A stretch of DNA of 58,547 nt from NCBI GenBank assembly GCA_027568095.1, contig GCA_027568095.1_4956.1; one strand, written 5' to 3'. Source of the DNA: a phage. How positions within the stretch are numbered: position 1 is the first letter of the stretch; each line of letters opens with the position of its first letter. The notes under the pieces were generated by a model that made no database searches, had not been told where the DNA came from, and saw only the letters and a list, made by a program, of their open reading frames with translations. Of this stretch, positions 9,747 to 58,222 are shown piece by piece. A program made the translations under genes and the position numbers.

Positions 9747-9775
9747 ATTATCGGGGAGGGTTGGCAATCTGTCAA
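9747..9775 (-). promoter_or_regulatory. conserved-family promoter (TTGACA-17-GATAAT) for ParB-like gene
   Basis: Reverse complement of 9770-9788 is AAAATAATTCTTGACA; -10 GATAAT at 9752..9747; overlaps stop of upstream gene. Confidence 0.5.
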
Positions 9776-9778
9776 GAA

Positions 9779-10141
9779 TTATTTTAAGAAGTTGGTCAGC
9801 GGTTCGAAACGTTTTATACAATCAGCAGGTACATAATCAGTGATTGACTCCCACGAAAAACGACCGGGTTTATGTTGTAAATTAGTAGCGTTTATAACAG
9901 CAACACACCATTCATCAACAGAACCACGATAACCCATTATTGATATAGCCTCAACAGGATTAAAGGTAATGAACACGGGGTGGAAACCGTATAAATTATC
10001 ATAACCACAGGAACGGATGGGAACACCTAACCCACGTTGAAAATCAAGATCACCACGAAGAAGTTTTATCCCCGGTACGATACCTTTCATCAGGATACTT
10101 TCACGGTTTTCCACTTTAGTAATATGATACGCATCAACCAT
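9779..10141 (-). CDS. hypothetical protein (120 aa)
   Basis: ORF start overlaps stop of upstream SLOG-like gene. Confidence 0.45.
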   Translation of the reverse strand: MVDAYHITKVENRESILMKGIVPGIKLLRGDLDFQRGLGVPIRSCGYDNLYGFHPVFITFNPVEAISIMGYRGSVDEWCVAVINATNLQHKPGRFSWESITDYVPADCIKRFEPLTNFLK

Positions 10142-10530
10142 ACGGAACCCACACAGTTAAACCAGCTTTTAACATGCGACGGTGCATATCAGCAGTACCA
10201 CGCCCACCGGGGAACACAACACCGTATGTAGGGCGTGGTTCACCCTCTAACATCGCCTGATTACGTTGATGACCTGCAACAGCGTTATAAGGCCCGTGCT
10301 TACCTTGTTTTACAACCGCACCTGGTACAGTCAGATCATCCCACGCTGCCGGGCAACTACGCACAGGAATACTGTGTAACTGCGCCCATTGCTTACACAG
10401 GTTATCAACACCTGACGCACCACCTTCAATTAGTTCGGTAATGGGGGAATTGTTTGTGAAGTAGTCCTAACGCGGAAAATACTGCTGTTCTGTCGTTGAA
10501 GTCACGACCACCTGTAACGACTATTATCAT
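10134..10530 (-). pseudogene. SLOG/DUF2493-like Rossmann-fold protein interrupted by a frameshift in a C5/G5 tract (10443-10447)
   Basis: ATG 10530 (ATGA overlap with MTase-like stop) gives MIIVVTGGRDFNDRTAVFSALGLLHKQFP then stop; +1 frame continues ITELIEGGASGVDNLCKQWAQ...FPGGRGTADMHRRMLKAGLTVWV. Confidence 0.5.
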
Positions 10531-11207
10531 TGTTTATTAGCCTCAAATACAGCGCGAGCAAAACCACGCGGGGTTAATGAACGTAACTGTTTAGTTGTTT
10601 CAGATTTACCACCCAGATATTTCCAGCCCCAGAAAAAGCCGATGTTAATCGGTCCGGGACGTTTTTCAGGCATTCTGAAACCGTTACCGAACCACAGACA
10701 CGTTTTCTTCGTGTACCCGTCAAACATCGGCATTTTAGGGTGAAAAGGTTTATCATCTGTTGTCATATAACCGCCATATTCCCATGGGTGAAAATAAGCG
10801 TCAGGTGTCCCCATCATTTCAGGACGCGATAAAGCACCGACAGGGTTTTCCACCATCCAGGGTACGTTATAACGTTCTCCGAGTTCCCGGATCAGTTTTG
10901 CGTTTGCCAATGCATACTGTAGTTCAGCGTCATCTCGGTCATGTTGCGAACCGCTTTGAGCAAACAGGGTGCAATCCGGAAAACCAAAAATAATTGACGG
11001 TAAAGGTGTTCCCAGTATTTCCTGCTTAATTGCAAATTGTGGGTCAATCCACTGATTAACGTAATGAAGATTTGGGTGATCAGCTTTAATAAAATATTCC
11101 CCGTGATTAGCGGAATCAGCATTAAAACAATAAACCTGATAACCATGTATCGCCCACGGTAAGCCCATAATCCCGGAACCATCGAATAACGACCAGACAA
11201 TTTTCAT
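10527..11207 (-). CDS. DNA methyltransferase-like protein (cytosine-C5-MTase-like motifs)
   Basis: LFDGSGIMG (motif I-like), GFPDC (PC-like), MVENPVGAL (ENV-like); assignment tentative. Confidence 0.4.
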   Translation of the reverse strand: MKIVWSLFDGSGIMGLPWAIHGYQVYCFNADSANHGEYFIKADHPNLHYVNQWIDPQFAIKQEILGTPLPSIIFGFPDCTLFAQSGSQHDRDDAELQYALANAKLIRELGERYNVPWMVENPVGALSRPEMMGTPDAYFHPWEYGGYMTTDDKPFHPKMPMFDGYTKKTCLWFGNGFRMPEKRPGPINIGFFWGWKYLGGKSETTKQLRSLTPRGFARAVFEANKQ

Positions 11208-11419
11208 CCTTCTGTCTCCTCGACGATCCGCGTGATTTTAACAGGCGCAATTGTTACTTTTCTACAATTGAAACCCTGATCGCGAAGTGCTTTAAGTGCA
11301 ACCCCAGCCATGTAAGTTGAACTGAACAGAGTAGCTTCACTGATATCGACCCAGGTAATCCGGGTATCAATATGTGCATAACGGTCTTCTTTTTTGATTA
11401 CAGCACCGAACTCAGTCAT
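11204..11419 (-). CDS. hypothetical protein (71 aa)
   Basis: ATGA overlap with downstream gene. Confidence 0.4.
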   Translation of the reverse strand: MTEFGAVIKKEDRYAHIDTRITWVDISEATLFSSTYMAGVALKALRDQGFNCRKVTIAPVKITRIVEETEG

Positions 11420-11609
11420 GATCGTTTTTCACTCCCCACATGCAAGCGCCAATTGATGCCGCAGCCGCTAATAATCCAAGACCAGCCAGAAACCACCACG
11501 GCGTTTCCGCATGATTACCACGTGTCATTAGTCCGACAATACAAGACGCGAGCGTTACGGACACAAGGAAAACAATAACAGTAATTAAACGGTCAAATAT
11601 GTTTTTCAT
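11412..11609 (-). CDS. small membrane protein (2 predicted TM)
   Basis: Hydrophobic segments ITVIVFLVSVTLASCIVGL and WWFLAGLGLLAAAASIGA. Confidence 0.45.
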   Translation of the reverse strand: MKNIFDRLITVIVFLVSVTLASCIVGLMTRGNHAETPWWFLAGLGLLAAAASIGACMWGVKNDHD

Positions 11610-12076: not shown

Positions 12077-12078
12077 TA

Positions 12079-12291
12079 TTAGTTCACCTTAGCCCACACA
12101 AGTTTATGAATAGACGTTCTGTATTTTCGCGCGGTTATATTAAAATCATGACCCTCGTGATAAATACTTTCGTGTTTCTTGAAGCTGTTAGCAATTAACG
12201 TGAAAGGTAATAGTTGCTTCAGACGATAAAAATAAAACCGTGTTCCGTTAGGACACTGTGAAAGTCTCATTAATCGGTAGCGTGGTTTCAT
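12079..12291 (-). CDS. hypothetical protein (70 aa)
   Basis: AAGGAG RBS 8 nt upstream of ATG 12291, downstream of promoter at 12323-12352. Confidence 0.45.
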   Translation of the reverse strand: MKPRYRLMRLSQCPNGTRFYFYRLKQLLPFTLIANSFKKHESIYHEGHDFNITARKYRTSIHKLVWAKVN

Positions 12292-12322
12292 AACAATCAC
12301 TCCTTGTTCACTTGATGTACAG

Positions 12323-12352
12323 ACTATAGCGCACACATCTGTAATTCGTCAA
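12323..12352 (-). promoter_or_regulatory. conserved-family promoter (TTGACG-18-TATAGT)
   Basis: Reverse complement of 12347-12365 is AAAATAATTCTTGACG. Confidence 0.5.
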
Positions 12353-12381
12353 GAATTATTTTACACATCCTTGTGCAATGA

Positions 12382-14736
12382 CTAACCGTTACTCGCAGGT
12401 GGGAAAGGCACTACATTAGCTGTTGACTGAAAAGGGAGAAGACGAATACCCCTGAAACCGTTTAGTCGAACGTTATTTATATTAACAACGTCTTTTTTCA
12501 CTTTACCACGAAGTGTGGATTTAAATGCCCGACTAAATGAAGTTTTAGTCATTGCTGGACCACCTTCCTGTGTTTTCCAGAGACGATAACGACCATATAG
12601 TTCTTCAGTGTGCACCTCACCATCAGATACCAATTCGCAACAATCTCTGATAAAACTTCTAAGTGGTGATTGTTGATCCATAATTTCCTGACGTTCTTCC
12701 AGACTTGCTTTTGGTTCAGTAAACCGTCCGTTAGCACGTAACCGTTGCAAACCTTCAATCGCCCAGTTACAGATCCCAGGTAGTTCTTTCATCAGTCGTG
12801 CTTCCAGAGTGGTGTCTTCACGACCCAGGAACGAAACGTTGAATGGCAGGATCAGCAAACGGTTAGCCATTGCACCGGAATCATCAGCAAATGCCGGGAT
12901 GTTGTTAGCAGCCAGTGTCATACGTCCCGGTAAACGACCGTTCCACGCACCTTTATACTTACGATTAACCGGAATCGCATCACAACCTGTAATAGATTTG
13001 AAACGGTCCAGAATTCGGTTGCGATCAGGCCCGGACACACTGTGAGCATCACCAATAAACAGCACAGATTTATCCAGCACAGTTTCAAGTACCGCATCAC
13101 TTGCTAAACCCTCCAGTGTGATCCCTGCATATGCTTCGTCACCTACCAGTGCCTGAATAATACGACCGATCGTACCTTTACCGGAACGTGGCGCACCAAT
13201 CAACAGCATCGCTTTCTGATAGTCATACGAGTTGACAAGCATATAACCCAGCCATTCCTGCAACAGTGCAATACGTTCCTGATCACCTTCCAGAGTTGTA
13301 TTAAGAAACTGTTCAAATGCTGGCGCACGGGCAAACGGATCGTAGCTATACGGTAAAATACTGGTCGTAAAGAAATCCGGGTTATGTGCATCACATTTGC
13401 CCGTGTGTACATCCAGTATTCCGTTCTGACAAACAATATAGTGTGATACATCAACGCCGGGCCATGTTCCAAGCTCACGATCAGCCCGTGTGAATAAATA
13501 CGACAATACCTTGTACGTACCATTGATCACGTCAGCTTTTGGTTCGCTGGCAAGCATTGCCATAGAAATTTGATGTTTCAGTTCATCTTCACTGACACGT
13601 TCCCACACGCGACCGTTGAACCGGTACGGCTGTTGCTGGACGAAAATCAATGTGTTGTTCGGATAATAATTATTAACGAACGTGGATGCGTTAACCGTGT
13701 GGTTTGAACCATATGCACCTTCACCGGGTTTCACACTCATGTACGCAGGTGTTCCACCATTAGGAACGATTGTAGGCGCTGGTGTGACTGCTTTCATCAG
13801 TTCTGGTGTCAGCGTCGGTTGACTACGATAAACCGTATCACAACGTTCCACAGCGCCCAGAATTGTGTTTTCACGGTAATCCTGACGATCTGTCCATTTA
13901 CCACGAACCAGTCCGGAACGGTTAAATAGACGTTCAATACGTTCGCAATCTTTCCCGGTCCAGAAAGCAAGGTGTGAGCACAGAGCAGCATCAGCGGCAG
14001 ATGCATTGTAGTCTTTTCCCTGGTCGCTGGGATATGACACAGACAGGCGTTCAACGTTTGCATTCCACAGATCCGCAAATGACGCTTTATTACCAAATAC
14101 TGAAGCAGCACTGGACGAATTTAACGCCATTTTAATCAGTTCATCATCGTCTGCCGGGCCTGACCAGTCATCACAGGGTGCTGTTGTCCAGCGTGCGGAA
14201 CGGTCTGAACGGATACGACCATACCGGGCAATAGAATCATGAATGCCCTGGGTATAATCAATATCAACATCACCATTACCCGTGAGCGTCATCGCGACGA
14301 AACGATCACGCCAGTACATTTCCAGCCCGGTTTTCTGGTCGTTCAGACTGTTAAAACCTTCCGGTATGCTGGTATAAGCACAGATGATATGCAAACCTGT
14401 TCCTGACTGACTGACTTCAGTGTAAGCATTTGGGAAACGGTTTACGAATTCATGCGCCAGTGGTGACCATGTAGCTGTTGCCTGATCTACCAGACAGTTA
14501 TCAACATCAATAAAGAAATAAGGATCGTTTTCTGTGAATACAAAACCAACACCAGACATACCGTACATTTGTGCCATACCTAACGCGGTGTGATAGTCAG
14601 ACCAGTCGTTAGGGTTAGTGGTACTGGCTTTATAACCGTGTACCGGGCTATATGGTACTTTCGTTGGTTTTGGACGATCGGCGACTGTCTCAAGTCGCCA
14701 CATGACCCACTGTTTACGGTTCAGTAACCCTTTCAT
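12382..14736 (-). CDS. DNA primase/helicase (primase-like N-terminus + P-loop NTPase helicase)
   Basis: 784 aa; Walker A GAPRSGKGT; GGAGCG RBS. Confidence 0.65.
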   Translation of the reverse strand: MKGLLNRKQWVMWRLETVADRPKPTKVPYSPVHGYKASTTNPNDWSDYHTALGMAQMYGMSGVGFVFTENDPYFFIDVDNCLVDQATATWSPLAHEFVNRFPNAYTEVSQSGTGLHIICAYTSIPEGFNSLNDQKTGLEMYWRDRFVAMTLTGNGDVDIDYTQGIHDSIARYGRIRSDRSARWTTAPCDDWSGPADDDELIKMALNSSSAASVFGNKASFADLWNANVERLSVSYPSDQGKDYNASAADAALCSHLAFWTGKDCERIERLFNRSGLVRGKWTDRQDYRENTILGAVERCDTVYRSQPTLTPELMKAVTPAPTIVPNGGTPAYMSVKPGEGAYGSNHTVNASTFVNNYYPNNTLIFVQQQPYRFNGRVWERVSEDELKHQISMAMLASEPKADVINGTYKVLSYLFTRADRELGTWPGVDVSHYIVCQNGILDVHTGKCDAHNPDFFTTSILPYSYDPFARAPAFEQFLNTTLEGDQERIALLQEWLGYMLVNSYDYQKAMLLIGAPRSGKGTIGRIIQALVGDEAYAGITLEGLASDAVLETVLDKSVLFIGDAHSVSGPDRNRILDRFKSITGCDAIPVNRKYKGAWNGRLPGRMTLAANNIPAFADDSGAMANRLLILPFNVSFLGREDTTLEARLMKELPGICNWAIEGLQRLRANGRFTEPKASLEERQEIMDQQSPLRSFIRDCCELVSDGEVHTEELYGRYRLWKTQEGGPAMTKTSFSRAFKSTLRGKVKKDVVNINNVRLNGFRGIRLLPFQSTANVVPFPPASNG

Positions 14737-15904: not shown

Positions 15905-15945
15905 TACAGTTCCTTACGTTTAAAATATTTCTATGCAGATTACCG

Positions 15946-17613: not shown

Positions 17614-17649
17614 GTATCTTTCCTTCAGCTAATATCGAATCGTGAAAAA

Positions 17650-17694
17650 AGTTTAAAATAGTTCTTGACGCATTGCAACTTATTCCTCTAACAT
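17650..17694. promoter_or_regulatory. overlapping divergent promoter pair (plus TTGACG-18-TAACAT; minus TTGCAA-17-TAAACT)
   Basis: Conserved GTTTAAAATAGTTCTTGACGCATTGCAA block between divergent operons. Confidence 0.5.
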
Positions 17695-17727
17695 CTGCAT
17701 CAACGAAAGGCGAGTGTAAAATAATTC

Positions 17728-17756
17728 TTGACAGATTACACAACACCTTTTAAAGT
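17728..17756 (+). promoter_or_regulatory. conserved-family promoter (TTGACA-17-TAAAGT)
   Basis: AAAATAATTCTTGACAGATTACA motif upstream of 17789 gene. Confidence 0.5.
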
Positions 17757-20690: not shown

Positions 20691-22547
20691 ATGTCAGATG
20701 CTTACGTTCACGATATTGAAAACTATCCTAATGTTTTTCTGTTCGGTGCTATTCACGCGTTAACTGAAACACCTTATATTTTTGAGATTTCACATCGTCG
20801 CGATGATCGTCAGGCTTTTTACTTATTCACGGAATATTTGCGTGAACATCGTGCTGAAGAAGTTGGTTATAACAATCTGGGTTACGACTATCCTGTTCAG
20901 CATTCTATTTTGAACAACATCATGTATATCACCAATGCAGACATTTATAAAAAAGGTGATTCGATAATTAACGCTGGTGATGAAAATCGTTTTGCTCATA
21001 TGGTGTGGGAAAAAGACTGGATAGTTCCCCAGCTTGATTTGTATAAAATTCATCATTTCGACAATCAGGCAAAACGAACAAGTCTGAAAACACTTGAATT
21101 CAATATGAGAATGGAAAACATTGAAGACCTCCCATTTACGCCAGGGACTTACTTAACCGATTCTCAAATTGATACGCTTCGTCAATATCTGATACACGAT
21201 TTGAAAGCGACTTTGATGTTTTATAAACACAGTAAAAAGCTGATCGATTTTCGTCGTGAACTTTCTGCTAAATACGGTCGTAATTTCATGAACCATAATG
21301 ACACGAAAATCGGTAAAGACTATTTCATTATGGAACTTGAAAAATCAGGTATTCAATGTTTCGAACCAGGTAGCAGAAAACCACGACAGACGCACAGACT
21401 ATCAATCGCATTGAACAGTGTGATTTTCCCTTATGTCCGTTTTGAACAGCCTGAATTTAATCGTGTTCTTAACTGGTTACGTCAACAGGTCATCACTGAA
21501 ACAAAAGGTGTATTCACAGATTTAAGCGCAGACATTAACGGGTTCTCGTTTGATTTTGGTACGGGTGGTATCCACGGGTCTATTGAGTCTCAAACTATCA
21601 GGTCCACTGAAAATTATGTGATCATCGATCTGGATGTAGCCAGTTTTTATCCAAACCTTGCAATTAGTAATGAACTTTACCCTGCACATTTGGGAAAACA
21701 ATTTTGCACCATTTATAAAAATGTTTACGACATGCGTTCCAGTTACCCGAAAGGTACACCAGAAAACGCAATGTTAAAACTGGCGTTAAACGGTGTGTAT
21801 GGTGACAGTAATAACGTATACAGTCCGTTCTATGATCCTGCTTACACAATGGCCATTACGATTAACGGACAGTTACTTTTGTGTATGTTGGCAGAAGAAC
21901 TTCTGAAAATCCCTGGTTTATCCATGATCCAGGCTAACACAGATGGTCTTACAGTTTACGTACCACGAGTATTTACCGGACAAGTAGAACAGGTTCGTCA
22001 CACGTGGGAAAAATTAACCAGACTCCAGCTTGAAGAAGCGATTTATGACGTGATGTTTATTCGCGACGTAAATAACTACATCGCTGTTTACGAAGGTGGT
22101 AAGAAAGTTAAACGTAAAGGTGCTTATTGTCACAGTGTTGATCTGGGTTGGCATCAAAACCACAGTATGCAGGTTGTTGCAAAAGCGGCTGAGGCAGCAC
22201 TGGTACACAATAAAGATATTCGTGATTTTATAACATCACACGAAGATATTCACGATTTCATGTTAGTGACGAAAGTACCGCGTAACAGTAAATTACTATG
22301 GGGTGATAAACAGGTTCAAAACATCACTCGTTATTATGTCAGTACAGATGGTGCACCGTTGACAAAAGTCATGCCACCACTGGCAAAATCACTGAAACTG
22401 AACCCTGACGCGCCTGAACGCCGTATGTCAGTGTGCAAAGGTTGGTTGACCACGGAGTGTAACGACATGAAACGTTTTAACCGGGCAACGCTAAATTATG
22501 ATTTTTATATCAAAGAAGCTGAAAAACTCGTTGCACCACTTCGGTAA
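20691..22547 (+). CDS. DNA polymerase, family B-like with N-terminal 3'-5' exonuclease motifs
   Basis: 618 aa; Exo I HDIEN, Exo III YLIHD; DLDVASFYPN (motif A-like), KLALNGVYG (motif B-like), NTDGL (motif C-like). Confidence 0.55.
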   Translation: MSDAYVHDIENYPNVFLFGAIHALTETPYIFEISHRRDDRQAFYLFTEYLREHRAEEVGYNNLGYDYPVQHSILNNIMYITNADIYKKGDSIINAGDENRFAHMVWEKDWIVPQLDLYKIHHFDNQAKRTSLKTLEFNMRMENIEDLPFTPGTYLTDSQIDTLRQYLIHDLKATLMFYKHSKKLIDFRRELSAKYGRNFMNHNDTKIGKDYFIMELEKSGIQCFEPGSRKPRQTHRLSIALNSVIFPYVRFEQPEFNRVLNWLRQQVITETKGVFTDLSADINGFSFDFGTGGIHGSIESQTIRSTENYVIIDLDVASFYPNLAISNELYPAHLGKQFCTIYKNVYDMRSSYPKGTPENAMLKLALNGVYGDSNNVYSPFYDPAYTMAITINGQLLLCMLAEELLKIPGLSMIQANTDGLTVYVPRVFTGQVEQVRHTWEKLTRLQLEEAIYDVMFIRDVNNYIAVYEGGKKVKRKGAYCHSVDLGWHQNHSMQVVAKAAEAALVHNKDIRDFITSHEDIHDFMLVTKVPRNSKLLWGDKQVQNITRYYVSTDGAPLTKVMPPLAKSLKLNPDAPERRMSVCKGWLTTECNDMKRFNRATLNYDFYIKEAEKLVAPLR

Positions 22548-22586
22548 ACCGTATAGAATTATTTAAAACTTATTGAGACGATAACA

Positions 22587-23123
22587 ATGCATACTTCACA
22601 CAAATTTGTAGCTGGTTCACCGATTGGTGTCTTTACTCCCGGTAAAATTTACAACCGTGTTGACGGGTTCACCCGTGATGGTCGTTCCCGTGGTTTTTAT
22701 ATTGATGACCGTGGTGAATTCCGTTTAACAGACGATGACATGTTCGAACCTGCAGAACAGATCCAACTTCGTTTACCACAGATGCCAATGTTCCCGGCCC
22801 GTCAGGAACGTCTGAAACTGGCTGCACGCTGGGGAACATCTGAAATCAGTATCAGTAACTGGTACAAAGTTGATGACCTGATGAAACCGTGGCGCATCAG
22901 TGACGCTATCTGTGGCACTCGTGTTCTTACAGAACCTAATACAACGACGTTTAAACCCGGTGAACTGGCTGAACTGGCTAATTCCCGTGGTTATCTATTG
23001 TCAGAACTATCCGTTCGTTGGGGATGGCATTACGGATGTGAAACTTTACACACTATCAGCACGGATCCGCGTCGTGTTGCACTTATCTGGGATATGTTAG
23101 AAGGGATGAATCGTCATGACTGA
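22587..23123 (+). CDS. hypothetical protein (178 aa)
   Basis: ORF in plus replication block. Confidence 0.5.
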   Translation: MHTSHKFVAGSPIGVFTPGKIYNRVDGFTRDGRSRGFYIDDRGEFRLTDDDMFEPAEQIQLRLPQMPMFPARQERLKLAARWGTSEISISNWYKVDDLMKPWRISDAICGTRVLTEPNTTTFKPGELAELANSRGYLLSELSVRWGWHYGCETLHTISTDPRRVALIWDMLEGMNRHD

Positions 23124-25960: not shown

Positions 25961-28279
25961 ATGGCTAACTGTAATGATTATATCAGTGCTGATGATTTGA
26001 AAACAGGCAAACAAGCGATTTTACATATTGAACACGTTGCAAAAAGTCGTGATGCGAACGGTAATCACTCTGCTGAAGTTACTGATGAAATCCGAGGTGA
26101 ACAAATCACAAACCCCACATTAGACGGTTTTTTCTCATCCATCACTCTTAAACCTGTAGATGGTTCTTTTGAAGACGGTGGGGTTTTAAGACATCGTTGG
26201 GAAACTTTATTATATAAAACGAATCGTTCATTTTATCAATGGTTAGGTGATCTGCCAAAAACAGTACCTGCAGGCAGTAGTCCATTTGATGAATCCGGGC
26301 AGTTAATCATGGGGTGGCGAGATGCTACTGATTTATCTCAGGCTGCTGTAAATAAAAACACATATAAACCGTTATTCATTCACAAAGAAACCGGATCCTT
26401 TACATCCGGGGGTAAAGCTATAAGTAAGATATCAGCACTATATAACCCACAGGATGAAATGTATTACACGCCTAAAACAGGTTCTGTTACCGTACTGCCG
26501 GGTTCAGTTCCAGATTCATCCTGGGTTTGTGTTGGTATCCTGGGGAGATATGAAATTGGTGATTTGCGAAACTTCAAAGCTGTTGGCGATGGTGTGTCTA
26601 TAGATACGCAATCTTTTATATTAGCAATGACATGTGCAAACTTTTTTAAAAATCGGGTGATCGTTCCTGGTGGGTATACGTTTGTTTGTGACAAGATGCA
26701 ATTCAGCAACATCAACAATGTGACAATCGAGGGAACCGGGTGTATCAAAATGATCAGCGAGCGTACAGGTGCTTTTTACTATGCTGATGGTGCCCAGATT
26801 ACATTTATCAACAGCTCAAATGTTAAAATCATTGGTATCGAATTTGACGGTAACAGGTCTGGATCGCCTCAATATACAGGTTTCAACCACGGTATACAGT
26901 TTGTCACGGGTACTGGTGATTTCCGTTCAAATAATGGCGGTGACGTAAAGAAAAATAAAAATATTTATATTAGTAAATGTCGTTTCCACGATCAGGGTAG
27001 TTATAATTCTGGTATAGATAAATTCGGTGACGGAATTTATCTATTTGGGTGTGATGGGGTTGTGATTGAAAATAACGAATTTGTTGATATTGGTCGTTGG
27101 GGTGTTGCTTCCTCAGATTGTTTCAATGTTCGAATTATCAATAATTATCACAATTGCTCTAAAATAGGAACAGTTGCATTAGGTTTTGTTGATATTGAAA
27201 ACGAATCAACAGATAACACAAATGGTTCATACTCTCACAATATCGTAATTTCTGGAAATACGATATGCGGTTTTGGTCAAATTCTTGTTAGTGGTGGTAA
27301 CAATAGTGAAAACAATCTTGGTGCTAAACATTACCTTAGAAACGTGACTATCACCGGAAACTCACTTCTTATTGAGTCAAACACCCATGAGACCGCGTCG
27401 TATATGACAAACCTTGTGTTTATTGGTGTTGCTCCTTTCTGTAATGTTGTGCCAACAACGTCGGCACAGGCTATCGACAACTCGAATATCGTTATCTCAA
27501 ATAATACGCTCAAATGTTATATCCCATCTAATTTGTCGATTGGTACAGGCATTAGTGGACAAGGAACCGGTTTTTCATCAGGTATATTCAATACTGTTAA
27601 CGGTGTGGTAATTAAAAACAATACCATTTTTGGTTTCGAAAAAGGTATACAGGCTGAATCACCAATTGTTTCAACGGGTTATACATTTACAAACGTACTT
27701 ATTGCCAATAATACGATTGATTGTAATGGTCTAACAAACTCCATTGGGATCCGAACTGCATCAACACAGCTTGTAGGTGTCAGCATTCAATCTAATATTA
27801 TCAGGAACGCCGTAACACGAGGTATTTCTGTTGAAGATGGTCGTGAAATCGGCGCAATAGATAGTTATGTTATGATTTCAGACAATGAAGTTTATTCCAA
27901 TATAGGCACAAATTATTTTGCAAATATCTACCGTGCAAGTTTCCAAGGTAATGGCTCCCGAGGTGGAGCGCTGGTTCTCGACGCCACAGTAACCAACATG
28001 GATAAAGATTACGGCAATACCTGGAACCATATTTTACGTGAAATAAATGGTTTTACTGTTAACAGTATGTCTCAAATAACACAGGATGCAATCGATATTG
28101 GGTCACAAACCAGATTCGGTTACACAGTACAACTTATACCGCCATTTAATCTTGAAGGTGCTCAGTCATCAGCAATGGTAACTGGCCCCGGACTAGCCAG
28201 GGCATTTATTACAAATATGTCAGGTTCCCCCGTAACTAAAGCTACTGATATATGGCATATGGTCGTTGAGAAACATTAA
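25961..28279 (+). CDS. tail fiber/tailspike with parallel beta-helix-like repeats
   Basis: ATG 25961 with CCAGGAGA RBS; about 770 aa; recurring N/G/I-rich repeats. Confidence 0.5.
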   Translation: MANCNDYISADDLKTGKQAILHIEHVAKSRDANGNHSAEVTDEIRGEQITNPTLDGFFSSITLKPVDGSFEDGGVLRHRWETLLYKTNRSFYQWLGDLPKTVPAGSSPFDESGQLIMGWRDATDLSQAAVNKNTYKPLFIHKETGSFTSGGKAISKISALYNPQDEMYYTPKTGSVTVLPGSVPDSSWVCVGILGRYEIGDLRNFKAVGDGVSIDTQSFILAMTCANFFKNRVIVPGGYTFVCDKMQFSNINNVTIEGTGCIKMISERTGAFYYADGAQITFINSSNVKIIGIEFDGNRSGSPQYTGFNHGIQFVTGTGDFRSNNGGDVKKNKNIYISKCRFHDQGSYNSGIDKFGDGIYLFGCDGVVIENNEFVDIGRWGVASSDCFNVRIINNYHNCSKIGTVALGFVDIENESTDNTNGSYSHNIVISGNTICGFGQILVSGGNNSENNLGAKHYLRNVTITGNSLLIESNTHETASYMTNLVFIGVAPFCNVVPTTSAQAIDNSNIVISNNTLKCYIPSNLSIGTGISGQGTGFSSGIFNTVNGVVIKNNTIFGFEKGIQAESPIVSTGYTFTNVLIANNTIDCNGLTNSIGIRTASTQLVGVSIQSNIIRNAVTRGISVEDGREIGAIDSYVMISDNEVYSNIGTNYFANIYRASFQGNGSRGGALVLDATVTNMDKDYGNTWNHILREINGFTVNSMSQITQDAIDIGSQTRFGYTVQLIPPFNLEGAQSSAMVTGPGLARAFITNMSGSPVTKATDIWHMVVEKH

Positions 28280-43239: not shown

Positions 43240-43583
43240 GGGGATTGTCCTCGTATTGTTTCAACATGACTAAATTCTAACATTTCAGATGAATAATTGC
43301 ACTGGTGATACACGCTGTTTACAACGTTACCGAATATCTCAGAAAGATTCTTGATCGGTTCAACAGCAGTCGTTACTGGTTCAACAGTAGTCATTACTAG
43401 TTCAACACCGTCCAGATGTTCAGCAACAACCTGGAAAAAAACTGTATTAGTTTCACGGTCAATAATTACCACTGTGCTGGAACTATCTTCAACAATGCTG
43501 AATGAGTAGTCGTAACGATCACCGTGAATTTTACGGGCGCGACGAATGAATTCGTCTGTAGCAACTCTGATGTTCGGATCCAT
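43236..43583 (-). CDS. hypothetical protein (115 aa)
   Basis: AGAAGGG RBS 8 nt upstream of ATG 43583; downstream of promoter 43614-43642. Confidence 0.4.
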   Translation of the reverse strand: MDPNIRVATDEFIRRARKIHGDRYDYSFSIVEDSSSTVVIIDRETNTVFFQVVAEHLDGVELVMTTVEPVTTAVEPIKNLSEIFGNVVNSVYHQCNYSSEMLEFSHVETIRGQSP

Positions 43584-43613: not shown

Positions 43614-43642
43614 AGGGTAGTTGTGTCGGTGTAATCCGTCAA
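43614..43642 (-). promoter_or_regulatory. conserved-family promoter (TTGACG-17-TACCCT)
   Basis: Reverse complement of 43637-43655 is AAAATAATTCTTGACG. Confidence 0.5.
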
Positions 43643-43941
43643 GAATTATTTTACGTATAGATTCATGGGAAGTATGCGACTCCCTATACCTTTTAAACCT
43701 CTCCTACTTGCAGCAACTTTTACTACTTATACTACTCTTCTGTTTATCTATGTTTATTATGTTTTCTATAAAAAGAATAAGATAGAGAGGGGTTGGTTAA
43801 AAAATAAACATGACGAAATCTATGAATTTATGATCTACTAATACAGATTCAGTATTAGCTGTAACTCAAAATCATGAAACCCATGTAAAACCATGTACAG
43901 TTAGTACACGTTCTGTATTAGCTGTATCTTTAAAATAATTC

Positions 43942-43970
43942 TTGACGGATTACAGACGGTAGGGTATCTT
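43942..43970 (+). promoter_or_regulatory. conserved-family promoter (TTGACG-17-TATCTT)
   Basis: TAAAATAATTCTTGACGGATTACA upstream of 44017 gene. Confidence 0.5.
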
Positions 43971-45047: not shown

Positions 45048-45068
45048 ACCAGAACAGGAGTAACAGCT

Positions 45069-45299: not shown

Positions 45300-45375
45300 C
45301 CCAATGAACCTATATCTTGCTTGACCACTTAACCTCCTGTTGCTAATATTGAGTTAAACAACAGGAGGTTTTATT

Positions 45376-47248: not shown

Positions 47249-47254
47249 AAAAAA

Positions 47255-47286
47255 GCCTCAGTTAACACACTGAGGCCGATTATATC
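47255..47286 (-). promoter_or_regulatory. TG-extended -10 (TGATATAAT) followed by GCCTCAG/CTGAGGC hairpin and U6 abutting the start codon
   Basis: Minus strand reads cgTGaTATAATcggCCTCAGtgtgttaaCTGAGGcttttttATGgct. Confidence 0.45.
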
Positions 47287-47291
47287 ACGTG

Positions 47292-48606: not shown

Positions 48607-48634
48607 TTATTCCTCATTGGTTAACGTTGACAGA

Positions 48635-48679
48635 AGTTTAAAATAATTCTTGACACATTGCAAGCGGTCACACTAACAT
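48635..48679. promoter_or_regulatory. overlapping divergent promoter pair (plus TTGACA-18-TAACAT; minus TTGCAA-17-TAAACT)
   Basis: Same conserved block as 17650-17694. Confidence 0.5.
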
Positions 48680-49703: not shown

Positions 49704-50179
49704 AAAGTTTTTGTGAAAAACACATGCGTGATAACAGTGATCAAAAACATGGTATTTGTCCTGACTGTGTGAATGAAAAACAACAATGGGATGGTGAAGG
49801 TTTACCACCTGTCGGTACAGTATGCGAGTGGTTAGCAAGCGTTGATCACGATTGGGTAAAGGTGACGGTATTAGGTCGTCATGGTGATGATATATGGTTA
49901 AAGCCTGATGACGGTACACAATCGTTTATTGTAGGTGACGCGGAAAACTTCAGACCTATTCCGAATGAACGTGAAAAGGCTATTGATGACCTAGTTTATG
50001 TTTTAATTAGTCATTATGGTGATTCTAAAGGTTCTGAATCTTATATTAAACTTGCGTCAGCTATGTATAACGCAGGGTGGCGTAATTACAACGAACAACC
50101 CGGTTTTGAGTGGCGCTATGTTTGTAAATGTTGTGGTACTCGTGTTCAACCAGGTCAGGAACTTAATCATGGGTGCTAA
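49700..50179 (+). CDS. hypothetical protein with WDGxxLPPVG motif and Cys pairs
   Basis: QQWDGEGLPPVGTVCEWLASV; N-terminal CPDC and C-terminal CKCCG. Confidence 0.5.
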   Translation: MKSFCEKHMRDNSDQKHGICPDCVNEKQQWDGEGLPPVGTVCEWLASVDHDWVKVTVLGRHGDDIWLKPDDGTQSFIVGDAENFRPIPNEREKAIDDLVYVLISHYGDSKGSESYIKLASAMYNAGWRNYNEQPGFEWRYVCKCCGTRVQPGQELNHGC

Positions 50180-50430
50180 CTATGACGATATTTAAAAACG
50201 CAATGGGCGATACTGTCGCGTATCTGCCGAAAGTCATTATTGCAGATCCATCCTGTGTTGATTACCCACACAGCAAGCAATCTGAAGCGACCTACAACGA
50301 CCTGTGCGCTGATATAATGCGTGGTTGTGACATCGGTATTGAACGACTTCAGAAACTTCGGGAGGAATACGAAAAACGGTCTGTACAGGCCGCAATGGGC
50401 TTACCGCCTGTATACGATAATTTAAAATAA
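50173..50430 (+). CDS. hypothetical protein (85 aa)
   Basis: ORF overlapping upstream stop. Confidence 0.45.
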   Translation: MLTMTIFKNAMGDTVAYLPKVIIADPSCVDYPHSKQSEATYNDLCADIMRGCDIGIERLQKLREEYEKRSVQAAMGLPPVYDNLK

Positions 50431-50433
50431 TTC

Positions 50434-50462
50434 TTGACGGATTACACAAGGACGTGTAACCT
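50434..50462 (+). promoter_or_regulatory. conserved-family promoter (TTGACG-17-TAACCT)
   Basis: TTTAAAATAATTCTTGACGGATTACA; overlaps stop of upstream gene. Confidence 0.5.
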
Positions 50463-51217: not shown

Positions 51218-52573
51218 TCAGTCGTCAATAGACGGTAATCCGTCCCCTGCTTTATCAATCCCCGTAATAGGTAGACCCGCCTCTTTATATACGTATTCCT
51301 GAAGGTCTGGATCCGGGAATACAGGTGCGCCAGCTTGTGCTAAACGAGCAAGTGCCGTAGTCAACGTTTCGATACTGTCTTTACTGATTGACCCGGCACG
51401 AATCGACGGGCGGTATTCATCAGGAAATGCGTTTAATGACCATAACTGTGGTATTAACTGACGATTAACACATTCTACAATGCTATCAATACGTGATTGC
51501 ATTGCGCGGATCCATAATTCAGTACGACTACCCAGGTTAGCATTATTCCCGGTATTACCACCCGTTCCGAAAAACATGAAATCTGCCAGTAACGCGCGGG
51601 CAATACTGGTATCCAGGCGTTTAATCGTCCGGTCAATATCCACAGAACTGGTCTGGTTAGGTGTAACGAATTCCAGTTTCACCTGTTGTTCACCACCGTA
51701 CGTGGTAACACCTGTTTCGTTATCATAACCCGTGATATACGGTTTAGAATAAATCACCAGTCCTGATTGTTCATTGCGTTTGATATTGGCAACAATGTTT
51801 TCATAGTTATCAATCATCGCCTGTGCTGCCTGACGCTGTTGTTCAGGAACGTTGGGGTCATTAGCCGCTTTCTTAATATCTGCGTTAACAGTAATTACCG
51901 GGAACCCTGTACCACGTTCGGCAAGTATGGATTCGATTTCCATATTCACTTTTTTGTAGTACCACGGGCGATAAGCTGTGCGCAGTAGTGATAAACCTTC
52001 CGGGTTACCTTTATTCGGACTTGAAATCAAATGAAGCGAACGGTCACGCGTGATTAACGTCGTTGTACCCTGGTTAGGTGAACGTTGATAAATACCACGA
52101 ACATAACCTGTTGGTTCTTCAATATCCCATCCAGCAAGCGTTTCAGGTGCTACAGGAACCAGACGGGCAATACCCACTGTACCGTCATCAAGGTCTTTCA
52201 CCCAAATGTCATACCAACCCCAGCCGAACACATCAACATCTGTCCACGTCTGAACGAATGCGGACCATGTATCATCAGGGAGTGCACCACGCGGATCACC
52301 CATTTTATTTTCAATAGCGTCCTGTAACCATTCTGAATAACGAATAGCTTCTGGATCATCTTTGTCAGACGGGTCAAAAATCCACTGTACAGAACGATAA
52401 ACGCTACTCATGGCGAATAACACACCGCCAATAGTTTCGTCGTTTTCAGCCATCTGGCGAAGGATGCGACGGCCTTGTTTACCGTTCAGTTTAGGAAGGA
52501 AATCGTCGTTTACCTGGTTGCCTGTTCGACTGTAACCGGCAACTGCTAGTTGTTCGAATTGTTGATCAGCCAT
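51218..52573 (-). CDS. portal protein
   Basis: 451 aa; position between large terminase and head morphogenesis genes. Confidence 0.5.
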   Translation of the reverse strand: MADQQFEQLAVAGYSRTGNQVNDDFLPKLNGKQGRRILRQMAENDETIGGVLFAMSSVYRSVQWIFDPSDKDDPEAIRYSEWLQDAIENKMGDPRGALPDDTWSAFVQTWTDVDVFGWGWYDIWVKDLDDGTVGIARLVPVAPETLAGWDIEEPTGYVRGIYQRSPNQGTTTLITRDRSLHLISSPNKGNPEGLSLLRTAYRPWYYKKVNMEIESILAERGTGFPVITVNADIKKAANDPNVPEQQRQAAQAMIDNYENIVANIKRNEQSGLVIYSKPYITGYDNETGVTTYGGEQQVKLEFVTPNQTSSVDIDRTIKRLDTSIARALLADFMFFGTGGNTGNNANLGSRTELWIRAMQSRIDSIVECVNRQLIPQLWSLNAFPDEYRPSIRAGSISKDSIETLTTALARLAQAGAPVFPDPDLQEYVYKEAGLPITGIDKAGDGLPSIDD

Positions 52574-52655
52574 GTTCTACAGGCTCCATACGGTTTACGG
52601 TTCTTAACGTATGTTATATCAGTGATGGTTTTTTTGCACGGTGTTAAAATAATTC

Positions 52656-52684
52656 TTGACGAATTACAAACGTACGATTATGCT
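52656..52684 (+). promoter_or_regulatory. conserved-family promoter (TTGACG-17-TATGCT)
   Basis: GTTAAAATAATTCTTGACGAATTACA upstream of 52716 gene. Confidence 0.5.
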
Positions 52685-52715
52685 TTAGTCATCAAATGAA
52701 CGAAGGGTGATAACT

Positions 52716-56191: not shown

Positions 56192-56315
56192 GTTGAAACT
56201 CCTGTGAGAGAATGTTAATTAACTGTAACCGATTGGTTACTTACAGGAGTATAGACCTGTTACATTAATCTAACAGGTAATTTACAAACATTTATAATGT
56301 AATTTGTCAAGAATT

Positions 56316-56345
56316 AAAAAGAAAACGGGCGGGAATAATCCCGCC
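56316..56345 (-). terminator. intrinsic terminator after large terminase gene
   Basis: GGCGGG-ATTATT-CCCGCC hairpin followed by U-rich tract on minus strand. Confidence 0.5.
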
Positions 56346-56353
56346 ACACTGTT

Positions 56354-58123
56354 TTAAAAAATGTCACCATATTCAGGAGTACCAACAGGATTCACACCAC
56401 CAGTAAATGGTTCTTCGACAAATTCAGTGCGTTTTGGTGATAGTGCAATAACCGCAGCATCGAAAAAGTTTGGCGATTTACTCCCATTTGGTTTCTTGTC
56501 AATCACAATCTTCCCGGCACCGTTACTTGTATACGTTGGCTGGCTTAACTCAGCTTCTAACCGTTGTGCATTTTCCAGTGACGGATCAATCAGAATGATT
56601 TCGTCTGGATCCTGTGGTTGACCTTCCACATACCATTTATAAATACGCTGACAGCGCAGACGTAACGCCCATGATGCCTGCGCTTTATAATTTGAAAAAT
56701 AATCTTTGTTTGATTTACGGTCTTTGTCACCAGGTTTTGTACCACCGATAATATCACCACCCGGATCCACAACTTTTCCATTCGGTAACCACGGGCGCAC
56801 ACGGAAGCGTAAAGTATCTTTACGGTCGTTTGCCGCTACTTTAACGCCTGTACCAACACCGTTAACTTCGTACCAATATTCATCAACACCCAGCATATTA
56901 GCCATCGTCAACATTCCTGGTGCAGCCAGTTCAGCGCCCCTGTGGTCAAGCTGTAGATGTGTCAGGAATACACCGTGAGCAATTACCAGTGCACTTGCAT
57001 CTTCACCACCGTCTGCGGCATCCTGTCCGGCGATACGTTGACCTGTTGGTGTAAGTAGTCCGTTAGCTTTGCGCCATTCTGTGTCACGGAAAGCGTCAAA
57101 AGCAGCACGTACCCATTCAGCTTTAATCAGTACACCCTGAACAGCAGCGGCATAGTCGCGATCGACTTCCTGTGCGAAAATATGCTGTAAACCTTTTTCA
57201 GCGAACGATTGTTTTTCTCGCTTATACCATTCGTCATCTTTAGCCGGGTGATCACGCCAGTCAAGAACCATTACACGCAATTTACCACGGGGTAATTTCT
57301 TGCCCGGTTCCCATTCCAGACCAGCTTTACGGTTGCGATAAAAAACGTTACCAACACCGTTAACCGAACTGATATCAATACGAACGTTGGTGTTAGCTGA
57401 CAACGACGCTTCAATCAGTTCAGGACGATCTACGTGTGCTGCCTCGTCGAGAAAATAGACAGATTTACGACCACCACGACCGATGTTATCGCCAGCTTCA
57501 CCAGTAATTGTTGCACCGTTTTCAGGGTTTATACATTTCATGTAAACCAGATGGTCTTTTTCACGCAGACCGACCGGGCGTAATTCCGGTGGTAATGCGC
57601 GGATAATCTGGCGAATCTTTTCAAAAATACTATCCGGGTCGCCCAGTTTATCAACAAGCTGCTCTTTACGTGATCCCCAGCCAACTGAAGAACCGGGACG
57701 ATACAGCCACGCCCACACGGACAAACCACAGGCTACCCAGGTTGCGCCATAATCTCGCGATTTTTCCCAAAGTCCCTTCTCTTTGTCTTCAAGCGCTTCA
57801 TAAACAAACTGAACCATGTCGATCTGACGTTCGAAAAGGCAGAAAGGCATGTTAGGCGGGTATTCAGTACCAACGTTACGCGGGTCATAAGTAAACGCCC
57901 AGTCGAGAATGAATGCCACCGGGTTTGTTTCGTAATACTTTTTCAGTACTGGGACAATTGCCCGATCCGTGCGCATACGATTTAACAGGTTAATGCGGTC
58001 AATGTAACACTGTTTGTAATCCGGGCGTGGCTGACCTTTTCGCCAGATACGTTCGTCGTTTGCGTAGGCATCACGCCAGCGCGGGTAATTATGAATATTT
58101 CCAGTAAACTTATTCATGATCAT
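56354..58123 (-). CDS. terL: terminase large subunit
   Basis: 589 aa; YFLDEAAH Walker B-like segment; position upstream of portal. Confidence 0.6.
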   Translation of the reverse strand: MIMNKFTGNIHNYPRWRDAYANDERIWRKGQPRPDYKQCYIDRINLLNRMRTDRAIVPVLKKYYETNPVAFILDWAFTYDPRNVGTEYPPNMPFCLFERQIDMVQFVYEALEDKEKGLWEKSRDYGATWVACGLSVWAWLYRPGSSVGWGSRKEQLVDKLGDPDSIFEKIRQIIRALPPELRPVGLREKDHLVYMKCINPENGATITGEAGDNIGRGGRKSVYFLDEAAHVDRPELIEASLSANTNVRIDISSVNGVGNVFYRNRKAGLEWEPGKKLPRGKLRVMVLDWRDHPAKDDEWYKREKQSFAEKGLQHIFAQEVDRDYAAAVQGVLIKAEWVRAAFDAFRDTEWRKANGLLTPTGQRIAGQDAADGGEDASALVIAHGVFLTHLQLDHRGAELAAPGMLTMANMLGVDEYWYEVNGVGTGVKVAANDRKDTLRFRVRPWLPNGKVVDPGGDIIGGTKPGDKDRKSNKDYFSNYKAQASWALRLRCQRIYKWYVEGQPQDPDEIILIDPSLENAQRLEAELSQPTYTSNGAGKIVIDKKPNGSKSPNFFDAAVIALSPKRTEFVEEPFTGGVNPVGTPEYGDIF

Positions 58124-58193
58124 CGGTCCGTTTGTAACTGTTCTGTACAGTTTACCATGGGTGACAGGTGGTGACAGAGATTTAAAATAATTC

Positions 58194-58222
58194 TTGACAG
58201 ATTACAGAGGTGGTGTCAGACT
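58194..58222 (+). promoter_or_regulatory. conserved-family promoter element (TTGACA, weak -10)
   Basis: TTTAAAATAATTCTTGACAGATTACA upstream of 58248 gene. Confidence 0.35.

What the first reader, a model, noticed from the sequence alone, without database searches (positions are those of the whole stretch)
9747..58222. Genome-wide conserved promoter module AAAATAATTCTTGAC(A/G)(G/A)ATTACA, at least 10 copies on both strands
A roughly 25-bp motif containing an AT-rich UP-like element, a TTGACA/G -35 hexamer and a conserved GATTACA/CATTGCA extension recurs at 9747-9788(-), 12323-12365(-), 17650-17694(+), 17714-17756(+), 43614-43655(-), 43931-43970(+), 48635-48679(+), 50421-50462(+), 52641-52684(+), 58181-58222(+) and a degenerate copy at 56304-56320(-). 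Each has a plausible -10 hexamer 17-18 bp downstream (GATAAT, TATAGT, TAACAT, TAAAGT, TACCCT, TATCTT, TAACCT, TATGCT) and sits upstream of an operon start, several overlapping the stop codon of the preceding gene. The extension beyond -35 exceeds what sigma70 needs, suggesting a phage- or host-factor binding site. The morphogenesis genes mostly lack it; the head-morphogenesis gene has a TG-extended -10 instead.
Basis: seen in the sequence. Interest (0 to 1): 0.5.

Follow-up and report, generated by a model that had tools for sequence, protein, structure and literature searches.

The report
Shared early promoter of 9NA-like phages
A 26-base sequence repeated 12 times in this 9NA-like phage genome is almost certainly the phage's standard early/middle promoter read by the host RNA polymerase; it is a tidy, well-conserved example of a known kind of element, and one conserved stretch next to the -35 hexamer remains unexplained.

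Summary
TTTAAAATAATTC-TTGAC-RRATTRCA occurs 12 times (0.4 expected). All 11 reported copies are confirmed, and one at 1578-1619(+) was missed. The window is a complete 9NA-like siphophage genome. Every copy points at a gene start; in 10 of 12 the start codon lies 54-64 nt from the -35. The same block recurs about 10-16 times in 9NA, Bas82 and two Klebsiella phages, with variants in a Proteus phage and a metagenomic lineage. It is absent from a Vibrio relative and essentially absent from bacterial genomes. Orthologous copies are 91% identical in the block and 38-58% in the flanks.

Best reading: host sigma70 early/middle promoters with an A-tract, a perfect -35 and a weak -10. Late genes (TerL, portal, head morphogenesis, structural operon, holin) instead carry conserved TG-extended -10 elements without a conserved -35. 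This two-class layout resembles the layout that Thermus phage P23-45 gp39 and T4 AsiA exploit.

The RRATTRCA box at -30 to -23 exceeds known sigma70 needs. A phage-encoded binder is plausible but unidentified. Dyad symmetry, recombination-joint and host-site ideas were tested and not supported.

It is a new member of a known kind, of modest interest. No transcription data were available.

The parts
1578..1619 (+). Block 1578-1603, -35 TTGACG, 17 bp, -10 TAGACT. First gene starts at 1652.
9747..9788 (-). Motif promoter. Block 9763-9788, -35 TTGACA, 17 bp, -10 GATAAT. Drives the ParB-like gene (start 9712). The motif's TAA is the stop codon of gene 9779-10141.
12323..12365 (-). Motif promoter just downstream of the primase gene. 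Block 12340-12365, 18 bp, -10 TATAGT. First gene starts at 12291.
17652..17694 (+). Upstream member of a tandem promoter pair for the replication operon (253-aa gene, exonuclease, SSB/annealing protein, DNA polymerase). Block 17652-17677, 18 bp, -10 TAACAT.
17715..17756 (+). Downstream member of the tandem pair. Block 17715-17740, 17 bp, -10 TAAAGT. Start codon at 17789.
43614..43655 (-). Motif promoter of a 115-aa gene (43236-43583) that is inserted upstream of the structural operon only in the window/Bas82 clade. 17 bp, -10 TACCCT.
43929..43970 (+). Motif promoter divergent from the previous one. 17 bp, -10 TATCTT. Drives the accessory cluster 43999-46299.
48637..48679 (+). Motif promoter for the dUTPase cluster. 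18 bp, -10 TAACAT. Start codon at 48714. Its orthologue in phage AVIO78A is annotated as a generic sigma70 promoter.
50421..50462 (+). Internal motif promoter. 17 bp, -10 TAACCT. Start codon at 50493. The motif's TAA is the stop codon of gene 50173-50430.
52643..52684 (+). Motif promoter divergent from the portal gene. 17 bp, -10 TATGCT. Start codon at 52716.
56281..56323 (-). Degenerate copy directly after the TerL terminator (56328-56345). The A-tract is replaced by a T-run. TTGACAAATTACA is kept, the -10 is poor, and the leader is long, with the start codon at 56191.
58181..58222 (+). Motif promoter divergent from TerL. 17 bp, -10 CAGACT (poor). Start codon at 58248. The cluster continues across the window end.
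15919..15944 (+). Class II copy, TTTAAAATATTTC-TATGC-AGATTACC. Flanks are kept and the -35 core is replaced. It lies between the helicase and exonuclease genes, opposite to the direction of the genes. The position is conserved in 5 genomes. Function unexplained.
22543..22568 (-). Class II copy, TTTTAAATAATTC-TATAC-GGTTTACC. It lies between the DNA polymerase stop codon and the 178-aa gene (ATG at 22587). It is identical at 26 of 26 positions in 5 genomes. Function unexplained.
58140..58157 (-). Context: putative late promoter of TerL, extended -10 TGGTAAACT with no conserved -35.
52608..52621 (-). Context: putative late promoter of the portal gene, extended -10 TGATATAAC.
47254..47287 (-). Context: putative late promoter of the head-morphogenesis gene, extended -10 TGATATAAT (47279-47287), followed by a conserved leader hairpin (47254-47277).
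43268..43282 (-). Context: putative late promoter of the structural operon, TGTTAGAAT, at the 3' end of the inserted 115-aa gene. The equivalent in 9NA and the Klebsiella phages is TGATAYTAT.
25971..25985 (-). Context: putative late promoter of the lysis cassette, extended -10 TGATATAAT, lying inside the divergent tail-fibre coding sequence.

Best explanation
The repeats are the phage's standard early/middle promoters, read by the unmodified host sigma70 RNA polymerase. Each is a compact cassette with these parts: an A-tract at -45 to -40 placed like a proximal UP subsite (a contact for the alpha subunit C-terminal domain); an extended, perfect -35 (cTTGACr) for sigma region 4; a conserved box RRATTRCA at -30 to -23; a weak TAnnnT -10 at 17-18 bp with no TG; and a short A/C-rich leader with a Shine-Dalgarno sequence near +14 and a start codon near +24. 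They drive both replication operons and the clusters of small accessory genes that sit between the late genes. Late genes instead use TG-extended -10 promoters without a conserved -35.

Because the early class depends heavily on -35 and upstream contacts and the late class does not, the early-to-late switch probably works by disabling -35-dependent initiation. That could be a phage protein acting on sigma region 4 or the alpha subunit, or a phage DNA-binding protein whose operator is the conserved box and flanks.

What is shown: sequence anatomy, orientation, conservation and phyletic distribution. What is inferred: use by sigma70, the temporal class, and the existence of a switch factor. I put promoter function at about 0.85 and a dedicated factor binding the box at about 0.4.
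For: 12 copies against 0.4 expected. The block from -48 to -23 is nearly invariant and the -10 is only TAnnnT. 12 of 12 copies face a gene start, with -35 to ATG of 54-64 nt in 10 of 12. The same block is present about 10-16 times in Bas82, 9NA, Carvaje and VLCpiS10a and in 64 IMG/VR stretches, several per 52-61 kb contig. Orthologous copies are 91% identical in the block and 38-58% in the flanks. A Proteus phage has the variant TTTAAAATATRGC-TTGAC-AGATTRCA with the same spacing and leader design. A third lineage keeps TTGACGGATTGCA. The motif is absent from a Vibrio relative. Bacterial genomes hold only 8 scattered single hits. No phage RNA polymerase or sigma factor appears in the annotation of relatives or in the 30 proteins scanned. 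Late genes carry positionally conserved extended -10 elements. Switching between the -10/-35 class and the extended -10 class is documented for P23-45 gp39 and T4 AsiA (PMC3950348). Two copies in AVIO78A are independently annotated as sigma70 promoters.
Against: There are no transcription start or RNA polymerase binding data. Several -10 hexamers are poor (CAGACT, TGTAAA, GATAAT). The loose extended -10 pattern TG.TA.AA[TC] occurs 35 times genome-wide, so the late class rests on positional conservation rather than on motif statistics. The helicase operon and the 272-aa gene show no convincing promoter of either class in the window. No candidate switch factor was identified. Two class II copies keep the flanks but lack a -35 and are not explained by this model.
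Confidence: 0.7

Rival explanations
1. These are plain strong sigma70/UP promoters and nothing else. The whole 26-nt block is conserved because selection favours maximal polymerase recruitment (A-tract, tcTTGACa, spacer shape) and because copies spread by duplication of a promoter-leader cassette. No extra factor binds.
For: The A-tract, the C at -36 and TTGAC all have known polymerase rationales (my knowledge of UP elements and of the extended -35 consensus tcTTGACat). Some copies share homologous leaders as well (family D4), consistent with cassette duplication. No regulator was found. The left flank differs between lineages but stays A/T-rich.
Against: ATTRCA at -28 to -23 has no known sequence-specific polymerase contact, yet it is kept in three lineages with different hosts. 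Positions -39 to -37 are invariant in 149 distinct instances but differ in the Proteus lineage. Class II copies keep the flanks while the -35 core is replaced. A Vibrio relative with the same genome architecture has no stereotyped promoter.
Confidence: 0.35
2. These are activator-dependent middle promoters. A phage activator binds the box at about -30 and works with remodelled sigma70, as T4 MotA/AsiA do.
For: The conserved box sits where the T4 MotA box sits, and the -10 elements are of the TAnnnT type, as in T4 middle promoters (my knowledge; the mechanism is summarised in PMC3950348).
Against: A perfect TTGAC -35 is retained in every copy, whereas MotA-dependent promoters lack a -35. If all 12 needed a phage activator, no promoter would remain to express that activator on entry, because no other early promoter class is visible. 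No MotA- or AsiA-like family was found among the 30 proteins scanned.
Confidence: 0.1
3. The repeats are mainly recombination joints: short shared sequences at module boundaries that promote mosaic exchange, like the promoter-stem-loop cassettes of T4-type phages.
For: Homology with 9NA and the Klebsiella phages ends exactly at the motif at 1604, 9785, 17717, 50419 and 58209. That is 9 alignment ends within 10 nt against 2 expected on a uniform model.
Against: With a fair control, intergenic gaps holding the motif have no more breakpoints than other gaps: 1.27 vs 1.48 per 100 nt. Orientation and the fixed distance to start codons are not explained by a recombination role.
Confidence: 0.07
4. 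The block is a symmetric operator for a dimeric repressor centred on the -35 (TAATTC-TTGAC-GAATTA).
For: Two copies (12340-12365 and 52643-52668) form a perfect 6-5-6 inverted repeat.
Against: Only the TAAT/ATTA part is general. In the Proteus lineage the left arm changes to TRGC while the right arm stays ATTRCA, so the arms do not co-vary.
Confidence: 0.03

Closest known systems
Strong, highly stereotyped early promoters of virulent coliphages (T4 early, T5 early), and the phage-specific promoter motifs found by repeat searches such as PHIRE (from my own knowledge)
   Same: Many near-identical sigma70-type promoters within one phage genome. Conservation extends beyond the two hexamers, including an upstream A-rich element. 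They are read by unmodified host polymerase at the start of infection.
   Different: Here the -10 is weak and the conservation is concentrated upstream, from -48 to -23. That includes a spacer box, RRATTRCA, with no counterpart that I know of in T4 or T5 promoters. No experimental data exist for this family.
Promoter-class switching in Thermus phage P23-45 (gp39) and by T4 AsiA (PMC3950348)
   Same: Two promoter classes used by the same host polymerase: a -10/-35 class and a TG-extended -10 class lacking a -35. The extended -10 class serves the later phage genes.
   Different: In P23-45 the -10/-35 class that gp39 inhibits consists of the host's own promoters, and the phage's early genes are, to my knowledge, read by a phage RNA polymerase. 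Here the phage's own early/middle genes carry the -35 class. No gp39- or AsiA-like protein was found, so the switch is inferred from promoter anatomy only.
Factor sites adjacent to or straddling the -35: the T4 MotA box at -30 and the lambda cII TTGC-N6-TTGC repeats (from my own knowledge)
   Same: A conserved phage-specific sequence immediately next to the -35 region, at a position where a bound protein could touch sigma region 4.
   Different: The sequence is unrelated. A consensus -35 is retained here, while MotA- and cII-dependent promoters have poor -35 elements. No cognate protein is identified.
Generic sigma70 promoter annotation in Escherichia phage AVIO78A (MZ726797; PMC10612097)
   Same: Two of the same sites are annotated there as promoters 'similar to TTGACA(N15-18)TATAAT with 2bp mismatch'.
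   Different: Only 2 of the 8 copies in the first 20 kb are annotated. The shared 26-nt block and the second, extended -10 class are not described there. The main comparative paper on the family (Zeng et al. 2019, PMC6819911) could not be read.

Membership tests
Bacterial sigma70 -10/-35 promoter with UP element | A -35 hexamer close to TTGACA | tested here: met
   TTGAC[A/G] in 12 of 12 window copies and in 149 distinct instances from relatives, although the core was part of the selection pattern for those.
Bacterial sigma70 -10/-35 promoter with UP element | A -10 hexamer (TAnnnT) 16-18 bp downstream of the -35 | tested here: met
   Nine of 12 copies have TAnnnT at 17-18 bp. GATAAT, CAGACT and TGTAAA are weaker. 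Pooled logo: T-12 in 96 of 149, A-11 in 118, T-7 in 121.
Bacterial sigma70 -10/-35 promoter with UP element | An A/T-rich UP element upstream of the -35 (proximal subsite at about -46 to -38) | tested here: inconclusive
   AAAATAAT at -45 to -38 is invariant in 11 of 12 copies and resembles the proximal consensus as I recall it. No distal subsite is conserved. Binding by the alpha C-terminal domain cannot be tested here.
Bacterial sigma70 -10/-35 promoter with UP element | Located upstream of a gene or operon and oriented towards it | tested here: met
   12 of 12 copies; -35 to start codon is 54-64 nt in 10 of 12.
Bacterial sigma70 -10/-35 promoter with UP element | Transcription starts about 7 nt downstream of the -10, and sigma70 holoenzyme initiates there | not testable with these tools
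   No RNA-seq or 5'-end data for any 9NA-like phage were found in the library.
Extended -10 (TGn) promoters | TG at -15/-14 and no need for a -35 | tested here: not met
   The motif promoters have no TG (T at -15 in 18 of 149) and an invariant -35. The feature is met instead by the late-gene elements at 58140, 52608, 47279, 43268 and 25971.
T4-type MotA/AsiA-dependent middle promoters | A MotA box replaces the -35, and the phage encodes MotA and AsiA | tested here: not met
   The consensus -35 is retained. The box sequence is unrelated. No matching Pfam family was found among 30 proteins. Not every small ORF was scanned.
Promoters of phage single-subunit RNA polymerases (T7-like) | A phage-encoded RNA polymerase and a promoter spanning about -17 to +6 | tested here: not met
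   No RNA polymerase gene appears in annotated relatives, and all large ORFs have other assignments. Conservation lies at -48 to -23.
Dyad-symmetric repressor operator overlapping a promoter | Inverted-repeat half-sites that co-vary, and a cognate repressor | tested here: not met
   Partial symmetry only. The arms do not co-vary in the Proteus lineage. No repressor was identified.
Recombination linker / mobile promoter cassette | Mosaic breakpoints concentrated at the element | tested here: not met
   1.27 breakpoints per 100 nt in gaps with the motif against 1.48 in other intergenic gaps.

The most novel reading that the evidence does not exclude
The A-tract and the RRATTRCA box that bracket the -35 are the operator of an unrecognised phage-encoded global regulator. 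That regulator gates the early-to-late switch in a phage family that has neither its own RNA polymerase nor its own sigma factor. The class II copies, with flanks conserved and the -35 core replaced, would be pure operator sites. A candidate regulator is the conserved 178-aa protein (22587-23123, 9NA gp64). Its gene sits next to a core-variant site in three lineages, and its model shows an SH3-like barrel followed by two helix-turn-helix-like helix pairs.
Probability: 0.2. Interest if true: 0.6.

Novelty: new member of a known kind. Interest (0 to 1): 0.4.

Why it matters
9NA-like phages are common but barely studied, and one of them (Bas82) is now in the BASEL reference collection. A defined early/middle promoter and a distinct late class give a first transcription map for the family. 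The map predicts which genes are early and supplies a compact, strong promoter-leader cassette for engineering. The clean split between promoters that depend on the -35 and promoters that depend on an extended -10 predicts an undiscovered phage factor that retargets host polymerase. The conserved -30 to -23 box gives a concrete sequence to use as bait for finding it.

Tried and rejected
1. Dyad-symmetric operator (TAATTC-TTGAC-GAATTA). Rejected because the arms do not co-vary in the Proteus lineage.
2. Recombination-joint role. There is an apparent excess of homology ends at the motif, but it disappears against other intergenic gaps.
3. Host regulatory site. Only 8 scattered single hits in 596 Gb of bacterial genomes.
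4. Search for a regulator. Pfam and PHROGs on 30 proteins gave only ParB-HTH, NinH and T5orf172/CapR, with no sigma or anti-sigma family. PDB sequence searches on two conserved unknown proteins found nothing.
6. Class II copies read as promoters, forwards or backwards. No consistent -10/-35 arrangement in the enteric phages. The Proteus copy could be read as TTGCAA-17-TATACT, but this does not generalise.
7. Literature. The key family paper (PMC6819911) is not held. The motif text was not found in any held paper.
8. Generic promoter scans are uninformative, since they are not enriched over shuffles.

Full report
**What the window is.** The 58,547-bp window is a complete genome of a 9NA-like siphophage (Nonanavirus/Sashavirus group). 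It is 96-97% identical to Escherichia phages PDP46 and KarinMuster_Bas82 over an 8-kb probe and runs in the opposite orientation to the Bas82 record. Annotation transferred from relatives places the genes as follows.
- TerS at about 3827-4462(-)
- TerL at 56354-58123(-)
- portal at 51218-52573(-)
- head-morphogenesis at 46289-47248(-)
- major capsid protein at 40137-41156(-)
- DNA polymerase at 20691-22547(+)
- primase at 12382-14736(-)
- helicase at 15946-17613(-)

No phage RNA polymerase or sigma factor is annotated in any relative.

**Checking the observation.** The core pattern gives 12 matches against 0.4 expected. A twelfth full copy lies at 1578-1619(+), outside the stated range. Aligning the copies shows a nearly invariant 26-nt block from -48 to -23, TTTAAAATAATTC-TTGAC-RR-ATTRCA. 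The -10 region is only loosely TAnnnT at 17-18 bp. Apart from coding tandem repeats, the block is the most repeated 11-mer in the genome. A generic TTGACA/TATAAT scan is not enriched over shuffled sequence, so the signal lies in the extended motif and not in hexamer matches.

**Anatomy and context.** All 12 copies point at a gene start. In 10 of 12 the distance from the -35 to the start codon is 54-64 nt, which gives a predicted leader of about 19-28 nt. The two exceptions are the upstream member of a tandem pair (17652) and the degenerate copy behind the TerL terminator (56281-56323). Pooling 149 distinct instances from relatives shows an A/C-rich leader, a G-rich Shine-Dalgarno sequence at about +14 to +16, and no TG at -15/-14. 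The TAA at -41 to -39 doubles as the stop codon of the upstream gene in two cases. The promoters head both replication operons (17652/17715 and 12323), the ParB-like gene (9747), and the clusters of small unknown genes that lie on the opposite strand between the late genes (43929, 48637, 50421, 52643, 58181, 1578).

**Comparative evidence.**
- The same 26-mer occurs about 10-16 times in Bas82, 9NA and the Klebsiella phages Carvaje and VLCpiS10a.
- It is found in 64 IMG/VR stretches, with several copies per 52-61 kb contig.
- For eight sets of orthologous promoters compared between clades, ungapped identity is 91% inside the block and 38-58% in 26-nt bins on either side.
- Proteus phage PmiS-Isfahan (capsid 60% identical, 36% GC) carries about nine copies of the variant TTTAAAATAT(A/G)GC-TTGAC-AGATTRCA, with the same spacing and leader design.
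- A third, metagenomic lineage keeps TTGACGGATTGCA with a different A/T-rich left flank.
- A Vibrio relative (capsid 51% identical) has no stereotyped motif.
- In 596 Gb of bacterial genomes the pattern gives only 8 scattered single hits. None is in the representative E. coli, Salmonella or Klebsiella genomes.

The element is therefore specific to this phage family and under strong purifying selection. Its most widely conserved parts are the A-tract, cTTGAC and the RRATTRCA box.

**A second promoter class.** The late genes are all on the minus strand and diverge from motif promoters, but they lack the motif. Upstream of each lies a TG-extended -10 with no conserved -35, and its position is conserved in five genomes even where neighbouring sequence diverges.
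- TerL: TGGTAAACT
- portal: TGATATAAC
- head-morphogenesis: TGATATAAT followed by a hairpin
- holin: TGATATAAT
- structural operon: TGTTAGAAT in the window, TGATAYTAT in 9NA and the Klebsiella phages

The loose pattern is common genome-wide (35 matches), so the argument for this class is positional conservation and not statistics. The motif copy at 43614-43655(-) looked like a structural-operon promoter. It belongs instead to a 115-aa gene inserted only in the window/Bas82 clade.

**Mechanism.** The simplest reading is that the motif copies are early/middle promoters used by host sigma70 polymerase. They combine maximal upstream recruitment (A-tract, perfect -35) with a weak -10. The late promoters are extended -10 elements that do not depend on a -35. 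Phage proteins that inhibit -10/-35 promoters while sparing extended -10 promoters are documented: P23-45 gp39 and T4 AsiA (PMC3950348). A comparable switch is a reasonable inference here, but it is not shown. The RRATTRCA box at -30 to -23 is not explained by polymerase contacts that I know of. It might be an operator, or it might act through spacer conformation.

**Search for a factor.** Pfam and PHROGs scans of 30 proteins found no sigma, anti-sigma or classical repressor family. The DNA-binding candidates are a ParB-HTH protein, NinH and a T5orf172/CapR protein. Two degenerate class II copies keep both flanks but replace TTGAC with TATAC or TATGC. They sit between genes inside the replication operons, in reverse orientation, and are conserved in five genomes.

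One class II copy lies 18 nt upstream of a conserved 178-aa gene. The Proteus orthologue of that gene (E = 8e-26) and the homologues in the third lineage also have a core-variant site just upstream. A second AlphaFold model of this protein was usable (pLDDT 78). Fold searches gave only a generic SH3/KOW-like barrel and nothing significant for the helical half. This remains a lead.

**Rivals tested.**
- A symmetric operator fails the cross-lineage co-variation test.
- A recombination-joint role fails a controlled breakpoint test.
- A host-factor site is disfavoured.
- A MotA-like activator model is unlikely, because every copy keeps a consensus -35 and no other early promoter class is visible that could express such an activator.

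**Prior knowledge and verdict.** In phage AVIO78A, 2 of the 8 copies in the first 20 kb are annotated as generic sigma70 promoters (PMC10612097). I found no description of the shared extended motif or of the two-class layout. However, the main comparative paper on the family could not be read. My verdict is a real, strongly conserved, family-specific promoter cassette. It is a new member of a known kind, with an unexplained conserved box that gives moderate interest.

Noticed in passing
window 58140-58157(-), 52608-52621(-), 47274-47287(-), 43268-43282(-), 25971-25985(-): Late genes (TerL, portal, head-morphogenesis, structural operon, holin) each have a TG-extended -10 element without a conserved -35. 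The position is conserved in five related genomes. This looks like a second, late promoter class.
   Followed up: partly
window 15919-15944(+) and 22543-22568(-); Isfahan (L071/L072) record positions 22793(-) and 36699(-); L086 2062(+); L087 9939(+): Class II copies of the motif keep both flanks but replace the TTGAC core with TATAC, TATGC, TAAAC, TTAAC or GTGAC. In the enteric phages they lie between replication genes, opposite to the gene direction. One always sits next to the 178-aa gene. Function unexplained.
   Followed up: partly
window 22587-23123(+): A conserved 178-aa protein of unknown function (9NA gp64, phrog_19205). The model has pLDDT 78 and shows an SH3/KOW-like barrel followed by two helix-turn-helix-like helix pairs built around RWG motifs. 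It is present in every lineage that has the motif and was not detected in the Vibrio relative.
   Followed up: partly
window 4713-4811 and 43736-43823: A perfect 56-bp direct repeat (4756-4811 = 43768-43823) extended by an 85%-identical 41-nt stretch. It is A/T-rich and contains short 'CTATGTT/ATAGATA' repeats. One copy lies in the 545-bp gap upstream of TerS and the other between the divergent promoters upstream of the structural operon. A similar A/T-rich 'catagata' region precedes the structural operon in 9NA and the Klebsiella phages.
   Followed up: no
window 9722-9744(-) and 47255-47276: The same hairpin/palindrome, GCCTCAGTTAACACAC(G)TGAGGC, occurs in the leader of the ParB-like gene and, inverted, in the leader of the head-morphogenesis gene (0 expected by chance). 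It could be an operator, a parS-like site or an RNA element.
   Followed up: partly
window 25934-25961: The tail-fibre (+) and holin (-) start codons are divergent and only 26 nt apart. Each gene's promoter must therefore lie inside the other's coding sequence, and the holin's TGATATAAT does.
   Followed up: no
window 12291-12322, 52685-52715, 58223-58247: A subset of the motif promoters also shares a homologous leader, CATCAAnTGAACnrrGGGT…ATGAAA. It is also seen in 9NA and the Klebsiella phages, which suggests duplication of the whole promoter-leader cassette.
   Followed up: no
window 5542-5667 and 20285-20498: In-frame tandem repeats inside coding sequence, with 21-nt and roughly 30-nt periods. 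The second encodes Ala/Pro/Val-rich repeats in the Gp2.5-like SSB/annealing protein gene.
   Followed up: no
window 45376-46299(+): A 307-aa protein with CapR and T5orf172/MUG113 domains. It has only weak relatives in Bas82 and 9NA (26-33% identity) and none detected in the Klebsiella phages. It appears to be an accessory DNA-binding or nuclease-type gene in an early cluster.
   Followed up: no
window 17614-17651 and 48607-48636: The helicase operon and the 272-aa gene start only 38 and 30 nt from the edge of a divergent motif promoter. In the window neither shows a convincing promoter of either class. In the Klebsiella phages the helicase side has TGATAATTT overlapping the motif edge.
   Followed up: partly
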